This document shows, one piece after another, positions 1-10,271 of a stretch of DNA of 10,271 nt; position 1 is the stretch's first letter, and each line of letters opens with the position of its first letter. Both the position numbers and the translations under genes were made by a program. Below the pieces are notes generated by a model. The model was not told where the DNA came from. It was given only the letters and a program-made list of their open reading frames with translations, and searched no databases. Source of the stretch: a virus; the UHGV virus genome UHGV-0344388; one strand, given 5' to 3'.

Positions 1-67
1 ATATACCGGAGCGGGTGTATTCAGCAATATACTCCTGCTGCAACGCCCCCCAGTCCGGTCTGCTCAT
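1..67 (-). CDS. 5' end of a gene continuing beyond the window start (22 codons visible: MSRPDWGALQQEYIAEYTRSGI); position suggests a DNA-packaging (terminase) gene, function unconfirmed
   Basis: ATG at 67..65 preceded by an AGGA Shine-Dalgarno-like motif about 9 nt upstream; open frame runs to position 1. It follows the stop of the 83-aa ORF in the same frame (TAA 73..71, one codon, then ATG). Not in the ORF track because it has no stop in the window. Confidence 0.35.
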   Translation of the reverse strand, partial: MSRPDWGALQQEYIAEYTRSGI

Positions 68-70
68 CAG

Positions 71-322
71 TTAGTCCTGATTTTTATCCACCCTGAGTAG
101 TTCGCGCAGAGCAAAGGCATCCCCTTTTCTGGCAAGCTTAAACAATGCCGCTCGTAACTCGGCTTCACCTTTCGCTCTGCCCTTACGGATGGCCGCATAA
201 AAATCTGTCATTGCTTCCCGATTTTCTTTCAGTCGGTTCAGATCAACATCCAGAACGTCAGCGATTTGTTGTGCAGTCATCCGGCACGCTGCCAGAGACT
301 CGACTTTCGAATACGGAATCAT
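71..322 (-). CDS. small helix-rich protein (83 aa), possibly an HTH DNA-binding protein of the kind found at the N terminus of small terminase subunits
   Basis: ORF track. GGGGG purine-rich motif 6-8 nt upstream of the ATG at 322; the alternative ATG at 280 has no SD. Helix-rich basic sequence (AAIRKGRAKGEAELRAALFKLARKGDAFALRELL). Overlaps the 3' end of the upstream gene by 65 nt. Functional call is inference only. Confidence 0.45.
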   Translation of the reverse strand: MIPYSKVESLAACRMTAQQIADVLDVDLNRLKENREAMTDFYAAIRKGRAKGEAELRAALFKLARKGDAFALRELLRVDKNQD

Positions 323-1190
323 TTGTCACCCCCATTGATATGCAGGGTGTCTTCTTCCTGTATTTTTCGTGAAGGATTTTTACTGCAGCGTTGTTCCAGG
401 TGACCTGATGGTGAATGCGTTTATGGCTGGCACCCATCAGTGAGATTTTTACGCACGACGGCGCATACATGACGGAGTAAAAACTTTTAACGTAGGTTCC
501 GGAATCCAGATACAGCTCGGTCATTCCGCCGCTGTTTTTCTGCGTCTGTTTCTGCCCTAACTGGACAGCACCGATCGTCATAAACAATTCACCACAGCGA
601 CCGAGATTCGTGTACGTATTCACATCCTCGTTAATGCGCCCCATGAATGAGAACGGTCGATCAACCGAACAGATAAAGCTGTTCATTGCCTTGCGTTTCA
701 CCCACGAAGCATGGCCGCCATTGTCACCAAGAAAATCCCCGCCCTGCGACATAGCGATGGAAAGCGCGGGTATTGATTCGTAATACGCCAGCATTTCAGA
801 AAGGATCGCATCCAGTTTCCTTATCGGGAAATAGGCCTGGTCATAGTTGCGATCCACCCGAAACTGGAACTCGTGATAATCATCATCGAGCTGAATGAAG
901 TATTTACACCCGACCAGTTTTGCCAGGTCGAAACAGGCATTACGGGCGTAAAAAATTGAGCGGCGGTCACCAAAATTATCGGCTTCGTCAAAACGACTGG
1001 CAATATCGGCTTTGGAAAATACCAGCACCTGTTCACCAAATTCAGCCATGTACTGATGCCGTGTCTTATCTTCATCATCAACAACGATAAAAATTTTCCC
1101 GGTATAGCCAGCACGACGCAACGTCCGGTAAGTCAGAACTTTGTCCGGTCGCCCGTGAGTCAGAATAAAGGCGCAAAAATCATCACGCAT
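258..1190 (-). CDS. GT-A-fold-like (GT2-like) glycosyltransferase candidate, 310 aa, cytoplasmic (no signal peptide or TM segment seen)
   Basis: ORF track. N-terminal pattern CAFILTHGRPD...GKIFIVVDDEDKT resembles the first beta strand and acidic motif of GT-A enzymes; a second acidic motif YFIQLDDDYHEF resembles the DxD metal/sugar-nucleotide site. Start ATG overlaps the stop of the upstream ParB-like gene (ATGCGTGA, 8-nt overlap) with a GGAGGAGG SD, indicating translational coupling. Fold assignment is motif-based inference. Confidence 0.6.
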   Translation of the reverse strand: MRDDFCAFILTHGRPDKVLTYRTLRRAGYTGKIFIVVDDEDKTRHQYMAEFGEQVLVFSKADIASRFDEADNFGDRRSIFYARNACFDLAKLVGCKYFIQLDDDYHEFQFRVDRNYDQAYFPIRKLDAILSEMLAYYESIPALSIAMSQGGDFLGDNGGHASWVKRKAMNSFICSVDRPFSFMGRINEDVNTYTNLGRCGELFMTIGAVQLGQKQTQKNSGGMTELYLDSGTYVKSFYSVMYAPSCVKISLMGASHKRIHHQVTWNNAAVKILHEKYRKKTPCISMGVTNDSVFESRVSGSVPDDCTTNR

Positions 1191-1971
1191 ATTCCTCCTC
1201 CCCGCTATGCATGATCGCCACCATGCGCTGCGTCATTCGGACAAATCCATTTTCAATAGCCTGCTGATAATCAATGATCACCAGCGCCGACTCCTCGAAA
1301 AGGCACTGAATTTCAGCGGGGGCATGAGCGTAATAGTCCGCAATTCTGCTGAAATTAAACACCGTGTGACGTTCTGCCGCACACAGGAGGAATTTCTCAA
1401 TATCAGGATCAAGGGACGCCGAACGTATCCGGCTGATCAGCTCCTGAGTTTTCGTATCGTCGTACAGTTCACTGATATCCGGTTTACCGCCCGACGGCTC
1501 ATAAACAGGCGTATCAATTTTCGTCGTATACGGCTCCTCCTTATTTCCTGTACCGGGCAAAACATCCGTCAACAGTTCATCAATTTCTGTCGGGCCGAAG
1601 CCTGTCAGGGAGACATCAAAATCAGCATTGATTAGGTCCGACAGCTCCATCCGCAATAGATCTTCATCCCAGCCAGCATTCATCGGTAGGCGATTATCTG
1701 CCAGGCGGTACGCCTTTTTCTGCTCATCCGTCAGGCCAGACAGAACAATGACCGGAACAGAATCCATTTTGAGCATTTCAGCCGCCATAACACGACCGTG
1801 ACCCGCAATAATTTCGCCCTTTTCGTCAATCAGCACCGGATTAGTCCAGCCGAATTGCTTAATACTTTCTACCAGTTGTGCCACCTGCTCAGTACTGTGC
1901 GTCCTGGCGTTGTGCGCATACGGTGACAATTCTTGTAATGGGCGATAGACTATCTTTAATTTCTCGCTCAT
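1183..1971 (-). CDS. ParB-like nuclease domain (ParB/Srx fold) protein, 262 aa
   Basis: ORF track. N-terminal region (YRPLQELSPYAHNARTHSTEQVAQLVESIKQFGWTNPVLIDEKGEIIAGHGRVMAAEML) matches the ParB N-terminal/ParBc pattern, including the G-H-x-R-x-x-A-A core; C-terminal ~170 aa unassigned. Confidence 0.8.
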   Translation of the reverse strand: MSEKLKIVYRPLQELSPYAHNARTHSTEQVAQLVESIKQFGWTNPVLIDEKGEIIAGHGRVMAAEMLKMDSVPVIVLSGLTDEQKKAYRLADNRLPMNAGWDEDLLRMELSDLINADFDVSLTGFGPTEIDELLTDVLPGTGNKEEPYTTKIDTPVYEPSGGKPDISELYDDTKTQELISRIRSASLDPDIEKFLLCAAERHTVFNFSRIADYYAHAPAEIQCLFEESALVIIDYQQAIENGFVRMTQRMVAIMHSGEEEYA

Positions 1972-1987: not shown

Positions 1988-2023
1988 AATAAAACGCACC
2001 CCAGCAGCCAGTGCTACTGGGGG
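1988..2023 (-). terminator. candidate rho-independent terminator downstream of the trkG-like gene
   Basis: On the minus strand a 10-bp stem (one G.U pair) with a 4-nt loop (plus coords about 1999..2022) is followed by UGCGUUUUAUU. The U-tract is offset by 4 nt from the stem, so confidence is moderate. Confidence 0.4.
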
Positions 2024-2108: not shown

Positions 2109-3566
2109 TTAGGAGCGCCAAAAAAAACCTGAAAACAATATAATAACAGGATAAATTTCAAGGCGACCAAGAATCATAGCTATGCACATTAAATATTTTG
2201 CAATGTCATTAAGCACTCCGAATGACGATGCAGTAGCCCCAAAACCTAATCCCATATTATTAATACATGCAGCCACTGTTGCAAATGATGTAAGAAAATC
2301 ATATCCCATACCATTTAACACCAGTATAAAAAACACCGTGAAGAGAGTATAAAGAAAAAAGAAACTCCATACAGACCTCATTACACGATCTGTAACTATC
2401 TTCCCTCCTACATTTACACTCAACAACGCTCTGGGATGAGAAAGCTGATTTATCTCGTGTTTGCTTTGTTTGAAAAGTATAAGAAATCGAAGTGACTTAA
2501 TTCCACCACAAGTTGAACCTATACATCCCCCAAAGAAACTTGACAACAGCAAAAACACTATCGTGTGCGTGGGCCAGTTTGCATAATCCTGCGTAGCTAA
2601 ACCATTATCAGTGAGCATGGAGCTGGCAAGAAAAAACGAATGAATAAAACTTCCATGCAAGTCATACATACCTATATGCCAGACCTGGAAAGAGGTAACA
2701 ATGATCACCCCTAAGGCTATTAACAGAAAGAAACGAAGTTCAATATCTCTGATTAAAGGTTTTATCGTTTTCCTGCTAATAACAATATACCAAAGAGTGA
2801 AGTTGAAAGCCGATAGCAGGGAAAAAGAACCAGCCACCAGCTCAACCAAATAGTTATTAAAATATCCGATACTCTCGCTATGAGTTGAGAAACCACCAAG
2901 CGAAACTGTGGAAATCCCGTGACAAATAGCATCAAACAAAGGCATTCCTGCAAGTCTATAACAGACAATACAAGCAATACCTAATAAAGAATAAGTTATC
3001 CACAGTGTCCGTGACGTATCGGCCAGGCGGGGAGTGAGTTTGTCATCCTTAAATGGCCCCGGCATTTCTGACTGATAAAGCTTTGCACCACCAATACCCA
3101 ATAATGGCAATACAGCAACCGCCAGAACAATAACTCCTAAACCACCTATAAAATTTAACTGTGACCGATAGTACAAATATGCCCGAGGTAATGAACTAAC
3201 ATCATCAATTACAGTTGCTCCTGTTGTTGTTATTCCAGAAACCCCTTCAAACAGAGCATCAATGAACGTTAAATTAAGTTCTGAGTCAATCCATAAAGGG
3301 AATGCACTAATAACAGAAAACAAAATCCAAAACATTACAATTATAATAAACCCATCACGGGTACGTAATTGAATGCCAGATTTCTTAGTTGTATACCACG
3401 CTCCGCCACCAATGCAAAAAAATATAACGAAAGTTATAAAGAAAACGAATAGGCTTTTTTCTTTATAAAACAATGCTACAACCATTGGTGGCAACATTGA
3501 AAGACTATAGAGCCAAACCAGGAACCCACACATATGAGTAACAACTCTTACATGAGATGTATTCAT
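2109..3566 (-). CDS. trkG: Trk-system potassium uptake protein, TrkH/TrkG family (485 aa from the MNTSHVRVV start)
   Basis: ORF track 2109..3584; start chosen at the second in-frame ATG (3566), giving 485 aa. Polytopic membrane protein with a GVSGITTTGAT selectivity-filter-like motif and a TrkH-like C terminus (GRLEIYPVIILFSGFFWRS). Conspicuously AT-rich relative to flanking phage genes. Position directly after Rz/Rz1 matches the known prophage-borne trkG of E. coli K-12 Rac (from memory). Confidence 0.9.
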   Translation of the reverse strand: MNTSHVRVVTHMCGFLVWLYSLSMLPPMVVALFYKEKSLFVFFITFVIFFCIGGGAWYTTKKSGIQLRTRDGFIIIVMFWILFSVISAFPLWIDSELNLTFIDALFEGVSGITTTGATVIDDVSSLPRAYLYYRSQLNFIGGLGVIVLAVAVLPLLGIGGAKLYQSEMPGPFKDDKLTPRLADTSRTLWITYSLLGIACIVCYRLAGMPLFDAICHGISTVSLGGFSTHSESIGYFNNYLVELVAGSFSLLSAFNFTLWYIVISRKTIKPLIRDIELRFFLLIALGVIIVTSFQVWHIGMYDLHGSFIHSFFLASSMLTDNGLATQDYANWPTHTIVFLLLSSFFGGCIGSTCGGIKSLRFLILFKQSKHEINQLSHPRALLSVNVGGKIVTDRVMRSVWSFFFLYTLFTVFFILVLNGMGYDFLTSFATVAACINNMGLGFGATASSFGVLNDIAKYLMCIAMILGRLEIYPVIILFSGFFWRS

Positions 3567-3703
3567 ATCTAAATATTCTTTCAATTATAACCACCTTGCT
3601 GCAATATTATGATTATACTGTATAAAATTTAACTCCTCTTAGATCTTACTTCACTGTTCCTTATGAAACAATCATCAAAATGAATCATATTGTAGTTAAG
3701 ATT

Positions 3704-5477: not shown

Positions 5478-5873
5478 CTAACCTCGCATGTCAAAGCCAG
5501 ATTTCTGAAAATCTCTGTAGACTTCCGGATTGTTGAAGGCCGGAAATTTGGCTTTATGAGCTGCGGACTTTATCGCTTCGCAATAGGCTTTATCACCGTT
5601 ACTGGTAGATATTTTTAACGCCGTGCCATCCTGAGAGAATTCCATATGCAACCTGCATTTTTTCCCTTTCCAGTTATGCGGCTCATCAAGTTTGGCATTA
5701 ATTGCAGCTCTGATTCCCCGCGCTTGCGCCCCCCATTCATCCTGATCATCCCAGCGTCCTGAACTGCAACTACCTGTAGCAGTAGTTTTGTGGCAATCTG
5801 AAGGGTGTAAAGGTGTGCATCCCGCAACAAAACCGACCCAAAAAGTCAACATAACGATTTTCTTTAATCCCAC
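5478..5873 (-). CDS. lipoprotein with a divergent TolA C-terminal (domain III)-like domain, 131 aa
   Basis: ORF track. GTG start with a GAGGAG SD 7 nt upstream. Signal peptide with VAGC lipobox (MGLKKIVMLTFWVGFVAGC), Thr at +2. C-terminal half (GKKCRLHMEFSQDGTALKISTSNGDKAYCEAIKSAAHKAKFPAFNNPEVYRDFQKSGFD) keeps the two-Cys spacing and the P-x-x-P-x-VY-x-x-F pattern of the neighbouring paralog. Confidence 0.7.
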   Translation of the reverse strand: MGLKKIVMLTFWVGFVAGCTPLHPSDCHKTTATGSCSSGRWDDQDEWGAQARGIRAAINAKLDEPHNWKGKKCRLHMEFSQDGTALKISTSNGDKAYCEAIKSAAHKAKFPAFNNPEVYRDFQKSGFDMRG

Positions 5874-6023: not shown

Positions 6024-6452
6024 TCAGGGTTTAAAATCCAGCACCCCATTTTGAAATACTTTATATACTTCCGGCGAAGGGGGGGCAGGTATATCAACAT
6101 TCTTTATCGCATTCATCGCTTCACGACATAAATCGAGGTCTCCACTTTCTCTTTTAACCTCCAGTAGAAGGCCATTCGGGGCCATATGCATTCTCAGTGT
6201 ACACTCTTTTCCTGAATACTTACTCGCATCCCCGAACTGTTTTTCGATGGCGCTCTTGATTTGATGGGCATACAGACGGATATCCTCACTAACATCAGAA
6301 GTACGTTCAGATGAACTCACATACTGTGTCTCTATTGCTTTATCGGAGTAATATGATGTACGGTCATGATAATTTGTCGATACAGCATCAGTGCACCCGA
6401 TAATAATCCCACTAATAATCAACGTAAGAATTGATGCGCTACGAAAACCCAT
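6024..6452 (-). CDS. lipoprotein carrying a TolA domain III-like C-terminal domain, 142 aa
   Basis: ORF track. ATG with GAGG SD. Signal peptide with IIGC lipobox, Thr at +2. C-terminal ~85 aa (LYAHQIKSAIEKQFGDASKYSGKECTLRMHMAPNGLLLEVKRESGDLDLCREAMNAIKNVDIPAPPSPEVYKVFQNGVLDFKP) aligns nearly colinearly with the E. coli TolA C terminus as I remember it (...YAGQIKSAIESKFYDASSYAGKTCTLRIKLAPDGMLLDIKPEGGDPALC...IPKPPSQAVYEVFKNAPLDFKP), including both cysteines and the terminal LDFKP. Confidence 0.8.
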   Translation of the reverse strand: MGFRSASILTLIISGIIIGCTDAVSTNYHDRTSYYSDKAIETQYVSSSERTSDVSEDIRLYAHQIKSAIEKQFGDASKYSGKECTLRMHMAPNGLLLEVKRESGDLDLCREAMNAIKNVDIPAPPSPEVYKVFQNGVLDFKP

Positions 6453-7449: not shown

Positions 7450-7526
7450 TGGCGCGCTGTACTGGATTCGAACCAGTGACCGATTGCTTAGAAGGCAATT
7501 GCTCTGTCCGGCTGAGCTAACAACGC
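7450..7526 (-). tRNA. tRNA-Arg (anticodon UCU), 77 nt including encoded CCA
   Basis: Reverse complement GCGTTGTTAGCTCAGCCGGACAGAGCAATTGCCTTCTAAGCAATCGGTCACTGGTTCGAATCCAGTACAGCGCGCCA folds as a cloverleaf: 7-bp acceptor stem, anticodon stem ATTGC/GCAAT with loop CTTCTAA, T-arm with GTTCGAATC, 3' CCA. Confidence 0.85.
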
Positions 7527-7626: not shown

Positions 7627-7702
7627 TGGTGGCCCTTGCTGGATTTGAACCAGCGACCTGGCGATTATGAGTCGCTCGCTCTCACCACTGAGCTAAAGGG
7701 CC
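7627..7702 (-). tRNA. tRNA with CAU anticodon, ileX/ileZ-like (probable tRNA-Ile2, lysidine-modified), 76 nt including encoded CCA
   Basis: Reverse complement GGCCCTTTAGCTCAGTGGTGAGAGCGAGCGACTCATAATCGCCAGGTCGCTGGTTCAAATCCAGCAAGGGCCACCA: perfect 7-bp acceptor stem, anticodon loop CTCATAA, T-loop GGTTCAAATCC. Closely resembles E. coli ileX as remembered. Ile versus Met identity is not decidable from the anticodon alone. Confidence 0.85.
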
Positions 7703-9050: not shown

Positions 9051-10100
9051 TTACCCAAGCACGCCAGTTGCAAAGGCGTGATCAAGAAAACGAAAAATTA
9101 AATCAACCTGAGAACCATGCTTTTCTTCGAACGCCAGAGGATCCGCATGAAGCTCGTTGTGATGCTCCCGACACAGCGGTAGCGTGAAAATATCGTGAGA
9201 TTTTGTCCCCATTCCGCCCTGACCATGACCAATCAGGTGATGGGGATCGTCGGCTGGCTTACCACAACACGCACACGGCTGTGTCTTCACCCAGCGTTTG
9301 TATTTCTCGTTAACCCAGCGGCGACGTTTAGGTCGTTTCATGAAAGATTCCGGAGACTCAGGATCAACGGCAATGCTGACCACCGTCTTTTCCTGTGGTG
9401 GGTTCTGTTGCTGGTGGGCGTGAGGCAGCGGCGCAAGATTTTTTGTGCGCTGTTTCAGTATGCTGGTGGCGGTCTGCTCTCCCGGTACGATGTCGCTTTC
9501 GCGGTACACCGAGCAGATTTTTTCCGCTGGTAATCCCAGCGAACGACGCGATACAGCCTCAGGTAGTGCATCCACCACCTGATTGCAGACCGCCCACCAG
9601 GATAATTCAGCCAAAGATAATTCCCGCTCCTGCGTACCGCTTATTGCGTGACGGATGACGTCAATCACCCATGCTGTCAGATTTTGTTGAGCAAGCAGCT
9701 CCAGTGATTCCGATGTCTGGTCACGCAGTTGGTTGTCGCAGTGCCAACACAACACCATTGCGCCGGTACCATAACGGTGAATGACTGTTTCAGTGTGATG
9801 GTAATCTCCATTAGGCCACTGGCAGGATGTAACATGACGTAATAGCCAGTCAGACAATGCGCCAACGCCGCCAGCAGCACGAATCACCCGTTCGTTACTA
9901 AAAAACGGCAGCAATGTTTTGTCTTCCGCCAGCGGCTGGCCAACGGCAGGAACGACTCCGGATGGCAGATTACGCATGCTTTTTGGTTCCGGTTCCACCA
10001 GCACTCGAGGATTATGAAATATCTGTATGGATTCACGGCCCGGCTTAAGGACCACCAGCCCAAGCTCAGGCACCAGAACAGGTCTAAGTAATACCCGCAC
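9051..10100 (-). CDS. DUF968-family prophage protein (YdfU-like) with a C-terminal HNH-like Cys/His motif, 349 aa from the GTG at 10100
   Basis: ORF track 9051..10139. Start placed at the in-frame GTG at 10100, which has a GGAGG SD and abuts the upstream stop, giving 349 aa (the size I recall for K-12 YdfU); the ATG at 9977 is an alternative. C-terminal motif CACCGKPADDPHHL...CREHHNELH. Confidence 0.75.
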   Translation of the reverse strand: MRVLLRPVLVPELGLVVLKPGRESIQIFHNPRVLVEPEPKSMRNLPSGVVPAVGQPLAEDKTLLPFFSNERVIRAAGGVGALSDWLLRHVTSCQWPNGDYHHTETVIHRYGTGAMVLCWHCDNQLRDQTSESLELLAQQNLTAWVIDVIRHAISGTQERELSLAELSWWAVCNQVVDALPEAVSRRSLGLPAEKICSVYRESDIVPGEQTATSILKQRTKNLAPLPHAHQQQNPPQEKTVVSIAVDPESPESFMKRPKRRRWVNEKYKRWVKTQPCACCGKPADDPHHLIGHGQGGMGTKSHDIFTLPLCREHHNELHADPLAFEEKHGSQVDLIFRFLDHAFATGVLG

Positions 10101-10101
10101 G

Positions 10102-10271
10102 TTACCTCCAGATCCGTTGCTGGAAAGTGCGGGACGCACGTGGTGGGCGTTCGGAGTAAGGCAATCTGACTGAGATTATCCAGTGACGGTAGTCGAGACT
10201 AAGGGCTTTCTTAACCTCGTATCCGCGCCTGCGGTAACACTGAATTATCCATTCAGCCTGCTCTTCAGTGC
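10102..10271 (-). CDS. 3' end of a gene entering from beyond the window end (C-terminal 55 codons: ...EEQAEWIIQCYRRRGYEVKKALSLDYRHWIISVRLPYSERPPRASRTFQQRIWR); function unknown
   Basis: Open frame on the minus strand from the window edge to a TAA at 10104..10102, immediately followed by the GGAGG SD and GTG of the DUF968 gene. Not in the ORF track because it has no start in the window. Confidence 0.4.
   Translation of the reverse strand, partial: TEEQAEWIIQCYRRRGYEVKKALSLDYRHWIISVRLPYSERPPRASRTFQQRIWR

What the first reader, a model, noticed from the sequence alone, without database searches (positions are those of the whole stretch)
258..1971. Translationally coupled ParB-like nuclease-domain gene and GT-A-like glycosyltransferase gene just upstream of the packaging genes
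The ParB/Srx-fold gene and the putative glycosyltransferase overlap by 8 nt (ATGCGTGA) with a strong SD, so they are co-translated as a unit, and the 3' end of the GT gene overlaps the next small ORF by 65 nt. The GT candidate is predicted cytoplasmic and carries two GT-A-like acidic motifs (IVVDDED and QLDDDYHEF). From established knowledge, ParB-like nuclease domains in phages are often partnered with DNA-modifying enzymes near the terminase genes, and sugar transfer to DNA bases is a known anti-restriction strategy. A ParB-like DNA-binding/nicking module paired with a glycosyltransferase could be an uncharacterised DNA-modification or anti-defence module acting at packaging or injection; a role in protein or envelope glycosylation is an alternative. 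The functional link is inference.
Basis: partly seen in the sequence, partly recalled or inferred. Interest (0 to 1): 0.7.

Follow-up and report, generated by a model that had tools for sequence, protein, structure and literature searches.

The report
ParB-partnered DNA-type glycosyltransferase cassette in prophage
A common E. coli prophage carries, just before its DNA-packaging genes, a tightly coupled gene pair – a ParB-like helper protein and a sugar-transferring enzyme of the family that decorates DNA bases in other viruses – but none of the enzymes that normally prepare DNA to receive the sugar, so its target is unknown.

Summary
On the minus strand, ynaK (1971-1183, 262 aa, ParB/Srx N-domain) overlaps a 310-aa gene (1190-258) by ATGCGTGA behind a GGGGAGGAGG Shine-Dalgarno. 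The 310-aa protein is a clear member of Pfam TAGT (TET-associated glycosyltransferase, E 5.5e-35), GT-A fold, with the family's R/DDD/ED motifs. RefSeq already names it "GREB1-related protein". The window is a Rac-family lambdoid prophage, and the pair occurs in about 16-30% of complete E. coli genomes.

New here:
- The conserved partner of this TAGT clade is an unannotated helical C-terminal domain of YnaK. It lies directly upstream of the GT in 100 of 102 loci (bacteria, Gram-positives, an archaeal virus), sometimes without the ParB domain and once fused to a TAGT.
- Full-length ParB-CTD+TAGT pairs sit 0.3-2.9 kb upstream of the large terminase gene.
- No TET/5mYOX or hydroxymethylase was found in any context examined, including two complete phage genomes. 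Both genes are nonetheless under strong purifying selection (dN/dS about 0.1).

Best reading: a late-expressed, two-component DNA glycosylation module with an unknown acceptor. I rate it a new variant of a known kind. It is directly testable in E. coli.

The parts
1183..1971 (-). ynaK, 262 aa: ParB/Srx-fold N-domain, conserved linker motif and novel helical C-terminal domain
   Evidence: ORF. Pfam ParB_N E 8.8e-7, above cut-off. phrog_620 E 3e-90 over the full length. RefSeq names it ynaK. dN/dS 0.10-0.13.
1567..1971 (-). YnaK residues 1-135: ParB/Srx N-terminal (NTP-binding-type) domain plus two helices; Box II reads G56-H57-G58-R59
1477..1566 (-). YnaK residues 136-165: mostly low-confidence (residues 136-152 predicted disordered) yet highly conserved segment carrying Y148-T-x-K-I-x-T-P155-V-Y157-E158-P159...P164
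   Evidence: Invariant or near-invariant columns in alignment A2. pLDDT below 50 for residues 136-152.
1207..1476 (-). YnaK residues 166-255: helical C-terminal domain (CTD), the conserved partner of this TAGT clade; no Pfam family
1183..1203 (-). Translational coupling site: SD GGGGAGGAGG (1203-1194), GT start ATG (1190-1188), ynaK stop TGA (1185-1183)
   Evidence: Read from the sequence. The overlap is conserved in distant relatives.
258..1190 (-). 310-aa TAGT-family GT-A glycosyltransferase ('GREB1-related protein')
   Evidence: PF20691 E 5.5e-35. phrog_842 E 9e-104. RefSeq name. More than 8000 homologues. dN/dS 0.07-0.12.
525..1169 (-). GT residues 8-222: TAGT Pfam domain / GT-A core with R14, D39/D41, D102-D104 (DDD, window 879-887) and N187-E188-D189
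   Evidence: Pfam envelope. Invariant columns. Residues 1-150 pLDDT above 85, matching SpsA, ThuS/SunS, ColGalT1 and glycogenin and viral TAGT models with TM 0.6-0.7. Motif R...DDD...EDY/F for phage GT-A/JGT enzymes as stated in bioRxiv 10.1101/2023.12.21.572611.
327..524 (-). GT residues 223-288: clade-specific, basic (pI 9.6), highly conserved C-terminal region (GGMTELY, GTYVKSFYS, R258-x-H260-H261) lying outside the Pfam model
   Evidence: AF2 confidence is low despite the conservation, so folding with the partner or substrate is inferred.
258..326 (-). E. coli-specific ~22-residue C-terminal tail of the GT plus stop codon; this tail causes the overlap with the next ORF
   Evidence: Homologues end near residue 288.
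71..322 (-). 83-aa ORF (RefSeq: 69 aa starting at 280), related to part of a small-terminase family; conserved between the GT and terS in enterobacterial versions
   Evidence: phrog_309 E 8e-23. An 82-aa counterpart exists in Yersinia prophages. RefSeq CDS.
1..67 (-). 5' end of the terminase small-subunit gene (Terminase_2)
1989..2022 (-). Intrinsic-terminator-like hairpin with T-tract after trkG, 18-50 nt upstream of the ynaK ATG
   Evidence: No promoter-like site above the shuffle expectation between it and ynaK. Expression by Q-antiterminated late transcription is inferred.

Best explanation
ynaK and the 310-aa gene form a two-subunit, late-expressed nucleic-acid glycosylation module of a Rac-type lambdoid phage. 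The 310-aa protein is the catalytic subunit: a metal-dependent GT-A glycosyltransferase of the TAGT family that uses a nucleotide-sugar donor. YnaK is its dedicated non-catalytic partner. Its helical C-terminal domain and the conserved YTxKIxTPVYEP segment bind and activate the GT, probably by completing or ordering the GT's basic C-terminal acceptor-binding region. The ParB/Srx N-domain adds NTP-dependent or packaging-linked control, in the way DBD-less ParB proteins switch on phage thymine dioxygenases on double-stranded DNA. The pair is translated as a unit from the Q-dependent late transcript together with the terminase. It should therefore act on replicated phage DNA just before or during packaging, giving sparse or site-specific sugar marks that protect against host nucleases. 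What is shown: family membership, fold, motifs, obligate pairing, a natural fusion, terminase adjacency, purifying selection, and the absence of hydroxymethylase genes. What is inferred: physical complex formation, activation, DNA as the acceptor, timing, and the anti-restriction role. The acceptor group is unknown. It is probably not phage-made 5hmC or 5hmU.
For: - TAGT membership and GT-A fold. Catalytic residues are invariant from E. coli to an archaeal virus.
- Characterised TAGT members act on DNA: T2/T6 beta-glucosyl-HMC-alpha-glucosyltransferase is PF20691 (PMC13216743, PMC13390438). Phage GT-A enzymes and JGT share the R...DDD...EDY/F site.
- A YnaK homologue lies directly upstream of, or overlapping, the GT in every locus with upstream sequence. 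A CTD hit is present in 100 of 102 loci.
- CTD-only genes overlap TAGT starts in lytic-phage replication and modification clusters that also carry C5-, N6/N4- and Dam methyltransferases and ArdC.
- A natural TAGT-ParB_N-CTD fusion is followed by a second TAGT and then TerL.
- The YnaK N-domain is the same module that is fused to phage DNA methyltransferases (PMC12704722).
- YnaK's predicted architecture (NBD, helices, disordered linker, CTD, no DNA-binding domain) matches that described for the ParB activators of 5mYOX (PMC13229309).
- TerL lies 0.3-2.9 kb downstream in 20 of 26 full-length-ParB loci and in 0 of 4 CTD-only loci.
- A terminator precedes ynaK and there is no promoter above chance.
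- dN/dS is 0.07-0.13.
Against: - No TET/JBP-type dioxygenase, thymidylate-synthase-type hydroxymethylase or other hydroxyl-generating enzyme was found. This holds for the complete Rac-like prophage, the complete phi jlb1 genome, about 35 Pfam-annotated contexts and 132 neighbour ORF clusters. No acceptor known for this family is therefore available in canonical DNA.
- YnaK is strongly acidic (net -21) and lacks an HTH, so it is unlikely to target DNA itself.
- One TAGT-domain protein, GREB1, glycosylates a protein (PMC7968844).
- No nucleoside analysis of any phage carrying this cassette was found in the searchable literature.
- The C-terminal half of the GT model is unreliable.
Confidence: 0.5

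Rival explanations
1. Protein glycosylation. The TAGT-type enzyme O-glycosylates a protein rather than DNA. Candidates are its own partner (the invariant Tyr/Thr of the YTxKIxTPVYEP segment, glycogenin-style), a packaging or virion protein, or a host protein.
For: - GREB1, a TAGT-domain protein, O-GlcNAcylates ER-alpha (PMC7968844).
- Structural neighbours include glycogenin, the peptide S-glycosyltransferases ThuS/SunS and collagen ColGalT1.
- The partner carries an invariant, predicted-disordered Tyr/Thr-rich motif.
- There is no DNA acceptor pathway.
Against: - CTD+TAGT pairs in lytic phages sit among replication and DNA-methylase genes, not structural genes.
- The ParB_N module is otherwise fused to DNA methyltransferases.
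- Tandem TAGT paralogues resemble stepwise DNA glycan building in T6.
Confidence: 0.15
2. The enzyme acts on foreign, already hydroxymethylated or glucosylated DNA (for example T-even phage DNA in E. coli). This would be superinfection interference, or the cassette is a pathway remnant that lost its dioxygenase.
For: - The T2/T6 TAGT adds glucose to alpha-glucosyl-hmC.
- The authors of bioRxiv 10.1101/2023.12.21.572611 speculate that prophage GTs could hypermodify invading genomes.
- E. coli hosts hmC phages.
Against: - The pair lies in the late operon behind a terminator with no promoter of its own, so it should be silent in lysogens.
- The same cassette occurs in Lactobacillus, Nocardia, Haloarcula and soil phages.
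- T4-like TAGTs share only about 23-25% identity and have no CTD partner.
- dN/dS of about 0.1 and 40-47% identity across domains of life argue against a remnant.
Confidence: 0.07
3. Small-molecule target. The GT glycosylates, or consumes, a nucleotide-derived metabolite or immune signal, or a nucleotide sugar, as an anti-defence measure. YnaK would act as an NTP-sensing regulator.
For: - In one phage the CTD+TAGT pair follows nicotinamidase-like and NAPRTase genes typical of NAD-reconstitution counter-defence.
- The ParB/Srx fold includes small-molecule kinases such as SerK and SbnI.
- No DNA acceptor pathway was found.
Against: - No precedent exists in this family.
- Terminase adjacency and DNA-methylase neighbours point to DNA.
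- The adjacency is a single case.
Confidence: 0.07
4. Two unrelated functions sharing a slot. YnaK would be a ParB-like nuclease or packaging accessory (like the HNH proteins next to terminases). The GT would be a lysogenic-conversion enzyme for envelope glycans.
For: - The region between the lysis and terminase genes is a moron hot spot (trkG here; toxin genes in Yersinia).
- HNH genes lie upstream of the pair in some loci.
- ParB_N proteins are often annotated as nucleases.
Against: - Pairing is obligate across about 100 loci, with overlapping reading frames.
- CTD-only partners lack ParB_N.
- A natural fusion exists.
- The GT has no signal peptide, transmembrane segment or Gtr-type partner (sequence).
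- The family is DNA-type TAGT.
Confidence: 0.04

Closest known systems
Phage TET/5mYOX-associated GT-A glycosyltransferases and trypanosome JGT (Pfam TAGT, PF20691)
   Same: Same Pfam family, GT-A fold and R/DDD/ED active-site pattern, encoded by phages and often near ParB and terminase genes.
   Different: Those enzymes act on 5hmC or 5hmU made by a neighbouring dioxygenase or hydroxymethylase; none is present here. This clade has an extra conserved C-terminal region and an obligatory CTD partner.
T2/T6 beta-glucosyl-HMC-alpha-glucosyltransferase
   Same: It is a PF20691 member that transfers glucose to a hydroxyl displayed on DNA. PHROG labels the window protein with this name.
   Different: Only about 23-25% identity to T4-like homologues. 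It has no CTD or ParB partner and needs glucosyl-hmC, which a lambdoid phage does not make. The PHROG name should not be taken as the function.
ParB activators of phage thymine dioxygenases (ParB176/5mYOX176; PMC13229309)
   Same: A ParB NBD, helices, disordered linker and CTD without a DNA-binding domain, encoded next to a post-replicative DNA-modifying enzyme.
   Different: The partner enzyme here is a glycosyltransferase, not a dioxygenase. CTD homology to ParB176 could not be tested because no sequence was available. Here the CTD alone can be the partner.
Phage ParB_N-DNA methyltransferase fusions (phrog_498; PADLOC MTase_II; PMC12704722)
   Same: The N-domain is closely related (E 3.7e-51 and 1e-38). 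These fusions are prophage-enriched and are typically encoded near terminase genes.
   Different: There is no methyltransferase domain. The catalytic unit is a separate, translationally coupled GT.
Chromosome/plasmid partition ParB (Spo0J, Noc, KorB)
   Same: The ParB/Srx N-domain fold, with Box I and a Box II arginine.
   Different: There is no HTH, no ParA and no parS context. The protein is acidic, and GERR is replaced by GHGR. It is not a partition protein.
GREB1 (animal TAGT-domain O-GlcNAc transferase)
   Same: It shares the TAGT domain and is the source of the RefSeq product name.
   Different: GREB1 is a large eukaryotic multidomain protein with a protein substrate. The relationship is at domain-family level only.

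Membership tests
TAGT (PF20691) glycosyltransferases | Match to the family profile above the curated cut-off | tested here: met
   121.6 bits against a 27.5 cut-off, E 5.5e-35, residues 8-222 covering profile positions 4-205 of 205.
TAGT (PF20691) glycosyltransferases | GT-A fold | tested here: met
   The N-terminal 150 residues are modelled at pLDDT above 85. Foldseek hits to SpsA, ThuS/SunS, ColGalT1 and glycogenin (E about 1e-4), and to viral TAGT models at E 4e-21, TM 0.64-0.70. The C-terminal half is poorly modelled.
TAGT (PF20691) glycosyltransferases | [quoted passage not shown] | tested here: met
   R14, D102-D103-D104 and E188-D189 (with Y193) are invariant in 11 and in 21 sequences. 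The pattern is taken from bioRxiv 10.1101/2023.12.21.572611. No direct alignment to JGT was possible.
TAGT (PF20691) glycosyltransferases | Genomic association with an enzyme that makes the hydroxyl acceptor (TET/JBP-5mYOX, or ThyS-type hydroxymethylase plus alpha-GT) | tested here: not met
   None was found in the complete Rac-like prophage, the complete phi jlb1 genome, about 35 Pfam-annotated contexts, or 132 neighbour ORF clusters. Vibrio phage pv27 has a single ThyS gene, next to DHFR. Caveat: one search lists only the top 25 of 75 families.
TAGT (PF20691) glycosyltransferases | Sugar transfer to a modified base in DNA | not testable with these tools
   This needs nucleoside LC-MS or an in vitro assay.
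ParB/Srx superfamily (PF02195) | Profile match and fold of the N-terminal domain | tested here: met
Partition-type ParB (ParABS) | HTH DNA-binding domain, a ParA partner, and the GERR CTPase motif | tested here: not met
   There is no HTH in the model and no HTH Pfam hit. No ParA gene is present in the prophage. Box II reads GHGR. TIGR00180 scores 38 bits against a cut-off of 58.
DBD-less ParB activators of phage DNA-modifying enzymes (PMC13229309) | NBD + helical segment + disordered linker + CTD, no DNA-binding domain, encoded beside the cognate enzyme | tested here: met
   Model architecture, overlap with the GT gene, and conservation of adjacency.
DBD-less ParB activators of phage DNA-modifying enzymes (PMC13229309) | Partner enzyme depends on the ParB for activity on dsDNA | not testable with these tools
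   This requires co-expression or in vitro reconstitution.
ParB_N-DNA methyltransferase fusions | Methyltransferase catalytic domain fused to ParB_N | tested here: not met
   Only residues 3-141 match phrog_498 or the PADLOC MTase_II model. The C-terminal half is the novel CTD.

The most novel reading that the evidence does not exclude
This CTD-partnered TAGT clade does not need a pre-installed hydroxymethyl group. With its ParB/CTD partner it would glycosylate a constituent of ordinary DNA, for example an exocyclic amine of a canonical base, at specific sites. That would be a type of DNA modification not yet described, made by a cassette found in a large fraction of E. coli strains and in phages of Gram-positive bacteria and archaea.
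Probability: 0.25. Interest if true: 0.9.

Novelty: new variant of a known kind. Interest (0 to 1): 0.6.

Why it matters
All known DNA glycosylation (T-even phages, base J, metavirome 5mYOX clusters, arabinosyl-5hoC) adds sugar to a hydroxyl that another enzyme installed first. Here a strongly conserved DNA-type glycosyltransferase is kept under purifying selection in small temperate phages that have no such enzyme. It is always welded to a previously unrecognised partner domain.

Either outcome is informative. If the acceptor turns out to be ordinary DNA, this is new nucleic-acid chemistry and a new anti-restriction mark. If it is a protein or a small molecule, it changes what 'TAGT' annotations mean in thousands of phage genomes.

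The module is also a second, genetically tractable example of a ParB-fold protein acting as a helper for a nucleic-acid-modifying enzyme. It sits in E. coli, where deletion, induction and LC-MS are routine.

Tried and rejected
1. I first assumed from memory that K-12 ydaY was the remnant of the GT. One search shows ydaY is a separate small tail-region gene. K-12 keeps only a truncated ynaK.
2. I looked for a hidden dioxygenase or hydroxymethylase and found none.
   - Pfam scan of unannotated Rac-like proteins.
   - Full phi jlb1 annotation and the 1.4-kb unannotated gap upstream of its ParB gene. The gap holds only short ORFs (the longest 73 aa, a hydrophobic membrane-like peptide); whether it encodes tRNAs was not checked.
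   - 132 neighbour ORF clusters. That output shows only 25 of 75 families, so single occurrences cannot be excluded.
4. A PDB sequence search with the GT profile gave no hits.
5. Several resources were unavailable.
   - The afdb50 library was not on the machine, so structural closeness to JGT and GREB1 was not measured.
   - Iyer et al. 2013 (NAR), which defined TAGT, is not held. Whether it already describes TET-less ParB-TAGT pairs could not be checked.
   - Supplements of PMC13229309 are not held, so YnaK could not be compared with ParB176.
6. The PADLOC scan shows the GT is not part of a catalogued defence system.
7. Literature searches for ParB plus glycosyltransferase without a dioxygenase found no description.
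Full report
**Setting.** All genes in the window lie on the minus strand and form the late region of a lambdoid prophage.
- DUF968/HNH-like protein: 10139-9051.
- RusA: 9038-8682.
- Q antiterminator: 8667-7846.
- tRNA-Met(CAT): 7702-7627; tRNA-Arg(TCT): 7526-7450.
- Two TolA-C-domain lipoprotein-like genes: 6452-6024 and 5873-5478.
- Holin, DUF1327 protein, lysozyme and Rz/Rz1: 5283-3704.
- trkG: 3584-2109.
- ynaK: 1971-1183.
- The 310-aa gene: 1190-258.
- An 83-aa ORF: 322-71.
- The start of the small terminase gene: 67.

The first 2.2 kb is 100% identical to many E. coli chromosomes. It matches 1619 of 5426 complete genomes, 867 of them over at least 80% of the query. It is 98.5% identical to induced E. 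coli phages of the vB_EcoS-...R series. A full copy (L001) is a Rac-family prophage carrying intR, xisR, recET, kilR, ydaT and trkG.

**Observation.** The 8-nt overlap ATGCGTGA, the GGGGAGGAGG Shine-Dalgarno sequence and both acidic motifs are present. The 65-nt overlap with the next ORF holds for the longest ORF, which has its own GGGGGTGA Shine-Dalgarno. RefSeq uses a later start, giving 23 nt of overlap. This overlap arises because the E. coli protein has a ~22-residue tail that homologues of about 288 aa lack.

**What the proteins are: the 310-aa protein.**
- It matches Pfam TAGT (PF20691) at E 5.5e-35 over residues 8-222 and phrog_842 at E 9e-104.
- RefSeq calls it "GREB1-related protein".
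- The AF2 model is confident for residues 1-150 and shows a GT-A fold. PDB neighbours are SpsA, ThuS/SunS, ColGalT1 and glycogenin. Viral neighbours are TAGT models with TM 0.64-0.70.
- R14, D41, D102-D104, N187-E188-D189 and R258/H260/H261 are invariant from E. coli to an archaeal virus; D39 is nearly invariant.
- Residues 223-288 lie outside the Pfam model. They are highly conserved within this clade, basic (pI 9.6) and poorly modelled.

**What the proteins are: YnaK.**
- Box II reads GHGR rather than GERR.
- After the N-domain come two helices, then a predicted-disordered but conserved segment (YTxKIxTPVYEP), then a confident helical C-terminal domain (CTD, residues 166-255).
- The CTD has no structural neighbour and no Pfam family.
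- The protein is very acidic (pI 4.6, net -21) and has no HTH.
- Its N-domain is closely related to the ParB modules fused to phage DNA methyltransferases (phrog_498 at 3.7e-51; PADLOC MTase_II at 1e-38).

**Comparative evidence: pairing.**
- The GT has more than 8000 homologues. Phage relatives share 40-47% identity in Nocardia, Lactobacillus, Vibrio and Haloarcula viruses.
- Every locus with upstream sequence has a YnaK homologue directly upstream, usually overlapping the GT start by 4-11 nt.
- A profile of the CTD hits 100 of 102 fetched loci. The two exceptions are a truncated contig and a T4-like Aeromonas phage whose TAGT is only about 25% identical.

**Comparative evidence: the CTD as a stand-alone partner.** In Vibrio phage pv27 and in many metagenomic phages the upstream gene encodes only the CTD (112-142 aa). 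It again overlaps the TAGT start. These pairs lie in replication and modification clusters that also carry C5, N6/N4 or Dam methyltransferases.

**Comparative evidence: family size and fusion.**
- The CTD family has 1382 cluster representatives at E<=1e-3, and the CTD is always C-terminal.
- One protein, P0502, is a natural TAGT-ParB_N-CTD fusion. It is followed by a second TAGT and then TerL.
- Tandem TAGTs also occur in soil contigs.

**Comparative evidence: terminase adjacency.** Full-length ParB-CTD+TAGT pairs have a large-terminase gene 0.3-2.9 kb downstream on the same strand in 20 of 26 representative loci. None of the 4 CTD-only loci has one.

**Comparative evidence: selection.** Both genes evolve under strong purifying selection, with dN/dS of 0.07-0.13.

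**What is missing.** The known acceptors of this family are 5hmU (JGT), 5hmC (metavirome GT-A enzymes), the glucose of alpha-glucosyl-hmC (T2/T6) and, for GREB1, a protein Ser/Thr. I found no TET/JBP-type dioxygenase and no thymidylate-synthase-type hydroxymethylase in any of the following:
- the complete Rac-like prophage;
- the complete 38-kb phi jlb1 genome;
- any Pfam-annotated neighbourhood;
- the families shared by 132 neighbour ORF clusters from 29 loci (only the top 25 of 75 families are listed, so singletons are not excluded).

Vibrio phage pv27 has one ThyS gene, next to a dihydrofolate reductase gene. That pairing is what a true thymidylate synthase would have. Pfam detects 83-95% of phage 5mYOX-containing contigs according to PMC13229309. 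Consistent absence is therefore unlikely to be a detection failure.

**Expression.** A terminator-like hairpin (2022-1999, then a T-tract) follows trkG and ends less than 30 nt before the ynaK start. Promoter-like sites are no more frequent than in shuffles. I infer that the pair is read by Q-modified polymerase together with the terminase genes. This implies late expression, when replicated DNA is about to be packaged.

**Literature.**
- ParB genes near phage DNA-modification and terminase genes have been noted before. Aravind and co-workers proposed that ParB directs modification machinery during packaging (PMC8256090).
- A 2026 study showed that DBD-less ParB homologues activate cognate thymine dioxygenases on dsDNA. 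Both the NBD and the CTD are required (PMC13229309).
- A 2025 survey of the ParB-CTPase fold lists methyltransferase fusions in prophages but no glycosyltransferase partner (PMC12704722).
- I found no paper describing a ParB- or CTD-coupled TAGT without a dioxygenase. The founding TAGT paper (Iyer et al. 2013) is not in the library, so prior description there cannot be excluded.

**Interpretation.** The best-supported model is a two-subunit enzyme. The TAGT is the catalytic subunit. YnaK is the dedicated partner: its CTD and linker motif bind and activate the GT, and its ParB_N domain adds NTP- or packaging-linked control. DNA is the most likely target, for these reasons:
- the family's known chemistry;
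- the methyltransferase-type ParB module;
- the DNA-methylase, replication and anti-restriction neighbours;
- the terminase adjacency.

The acceptor is unexplained, which leaves real room for a protein or small-molecule target. It also leaves room for glycosylation of unmodified DNA, which would be new chemistry.

**Verdict.** Family-level annotation already exists, so this is not categorically new. The obligate CTD partnership, the fusion evidence and the systematic absence of an acceptor-making enzyme make it a distinct, experimentally attractive variant.

Noticed in passing
window 5478-5873 and 6024-6452 (minus strand): Two paralogous small lipoprotein-like genes carry TolA C-terminal domains (PF06519, E 1.3e-14 and 8e-23). 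They lie between the prophage tRNAs and the holin. They may be TolA-domain decoys against colicins or filamentous or other phages that use TolA. This segment differs from the otherwise identical prophage in strain CFSAN061763, which has iraM there.
   Followed up: partly
window 7450-7526 and 7627-7702 (minus strand): Prophage tRNA-Arg(TCT) and a CAT-anticodon tRNA lie just downstream of the Q antiterminator gene. ARAGORN calls the latter Met; RefSeq annotates the homologous gene as Ile.
   Followed up: no
window 2109-3584 and 1989-2022 (minus strand): trkG (a TrkH-family K+ transporter) is a moron inserted in the late operon between Rz and ynaK, with its own terminator-like hairpin. In E. coli K-12 the Rac prophage keeps trkG and only a truncated ynaK, and has lost the GT.
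   Followed up: partly
L002-L004 (2207-3938) and the 16.6-kb JGI contig carrying P0502: Some relatives carry two TAGT paralogues in tandem after the ParB-CTD gene. One carries a TAGT-ParB_N-CTD fusion followed by a second TAGT and TerL. This suggests stepwise building of a di-saccharide.
   Followed up: partly
L095 2833-8273: In one metagenomic phage the CTD+TAGT pair directly follows isochorismatase (nicotinamidase-like), F420-ligase-like and NAPRTase genes. An N6/N4 methyltransferase follows the pair. The arrangement looks like a counter-defence island.
   Followed up: no
L100 (Nocardia phage NTR1) 3-3408: The ParB-CTD gene (Orf1) and the TAGT gene (Orf2) are immediately followed by the large terminase, with no annotated small-terminase gene between them. 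This raises the question of whether the ParB-like protein also serves packaging recognition there.
   Followed up: no
L008 2180-3332 (Yersinia prophage): Heat-labile-enterotoxin-like A (Enterotoxin_a/Scabin-like) and LT-IIB genes occupy the slot upstream of the ParB-TAGT pair. This is the position trkG holds in E. coli.
   Followed up: no
window 9051-10139 (minus strand): A 362-aa DUF968 protein has a weak HNH-like C-terminal match (HNHc_6, E 1.4e-4, below cut-off). It lies upstream of rusA.
   Followed up: no
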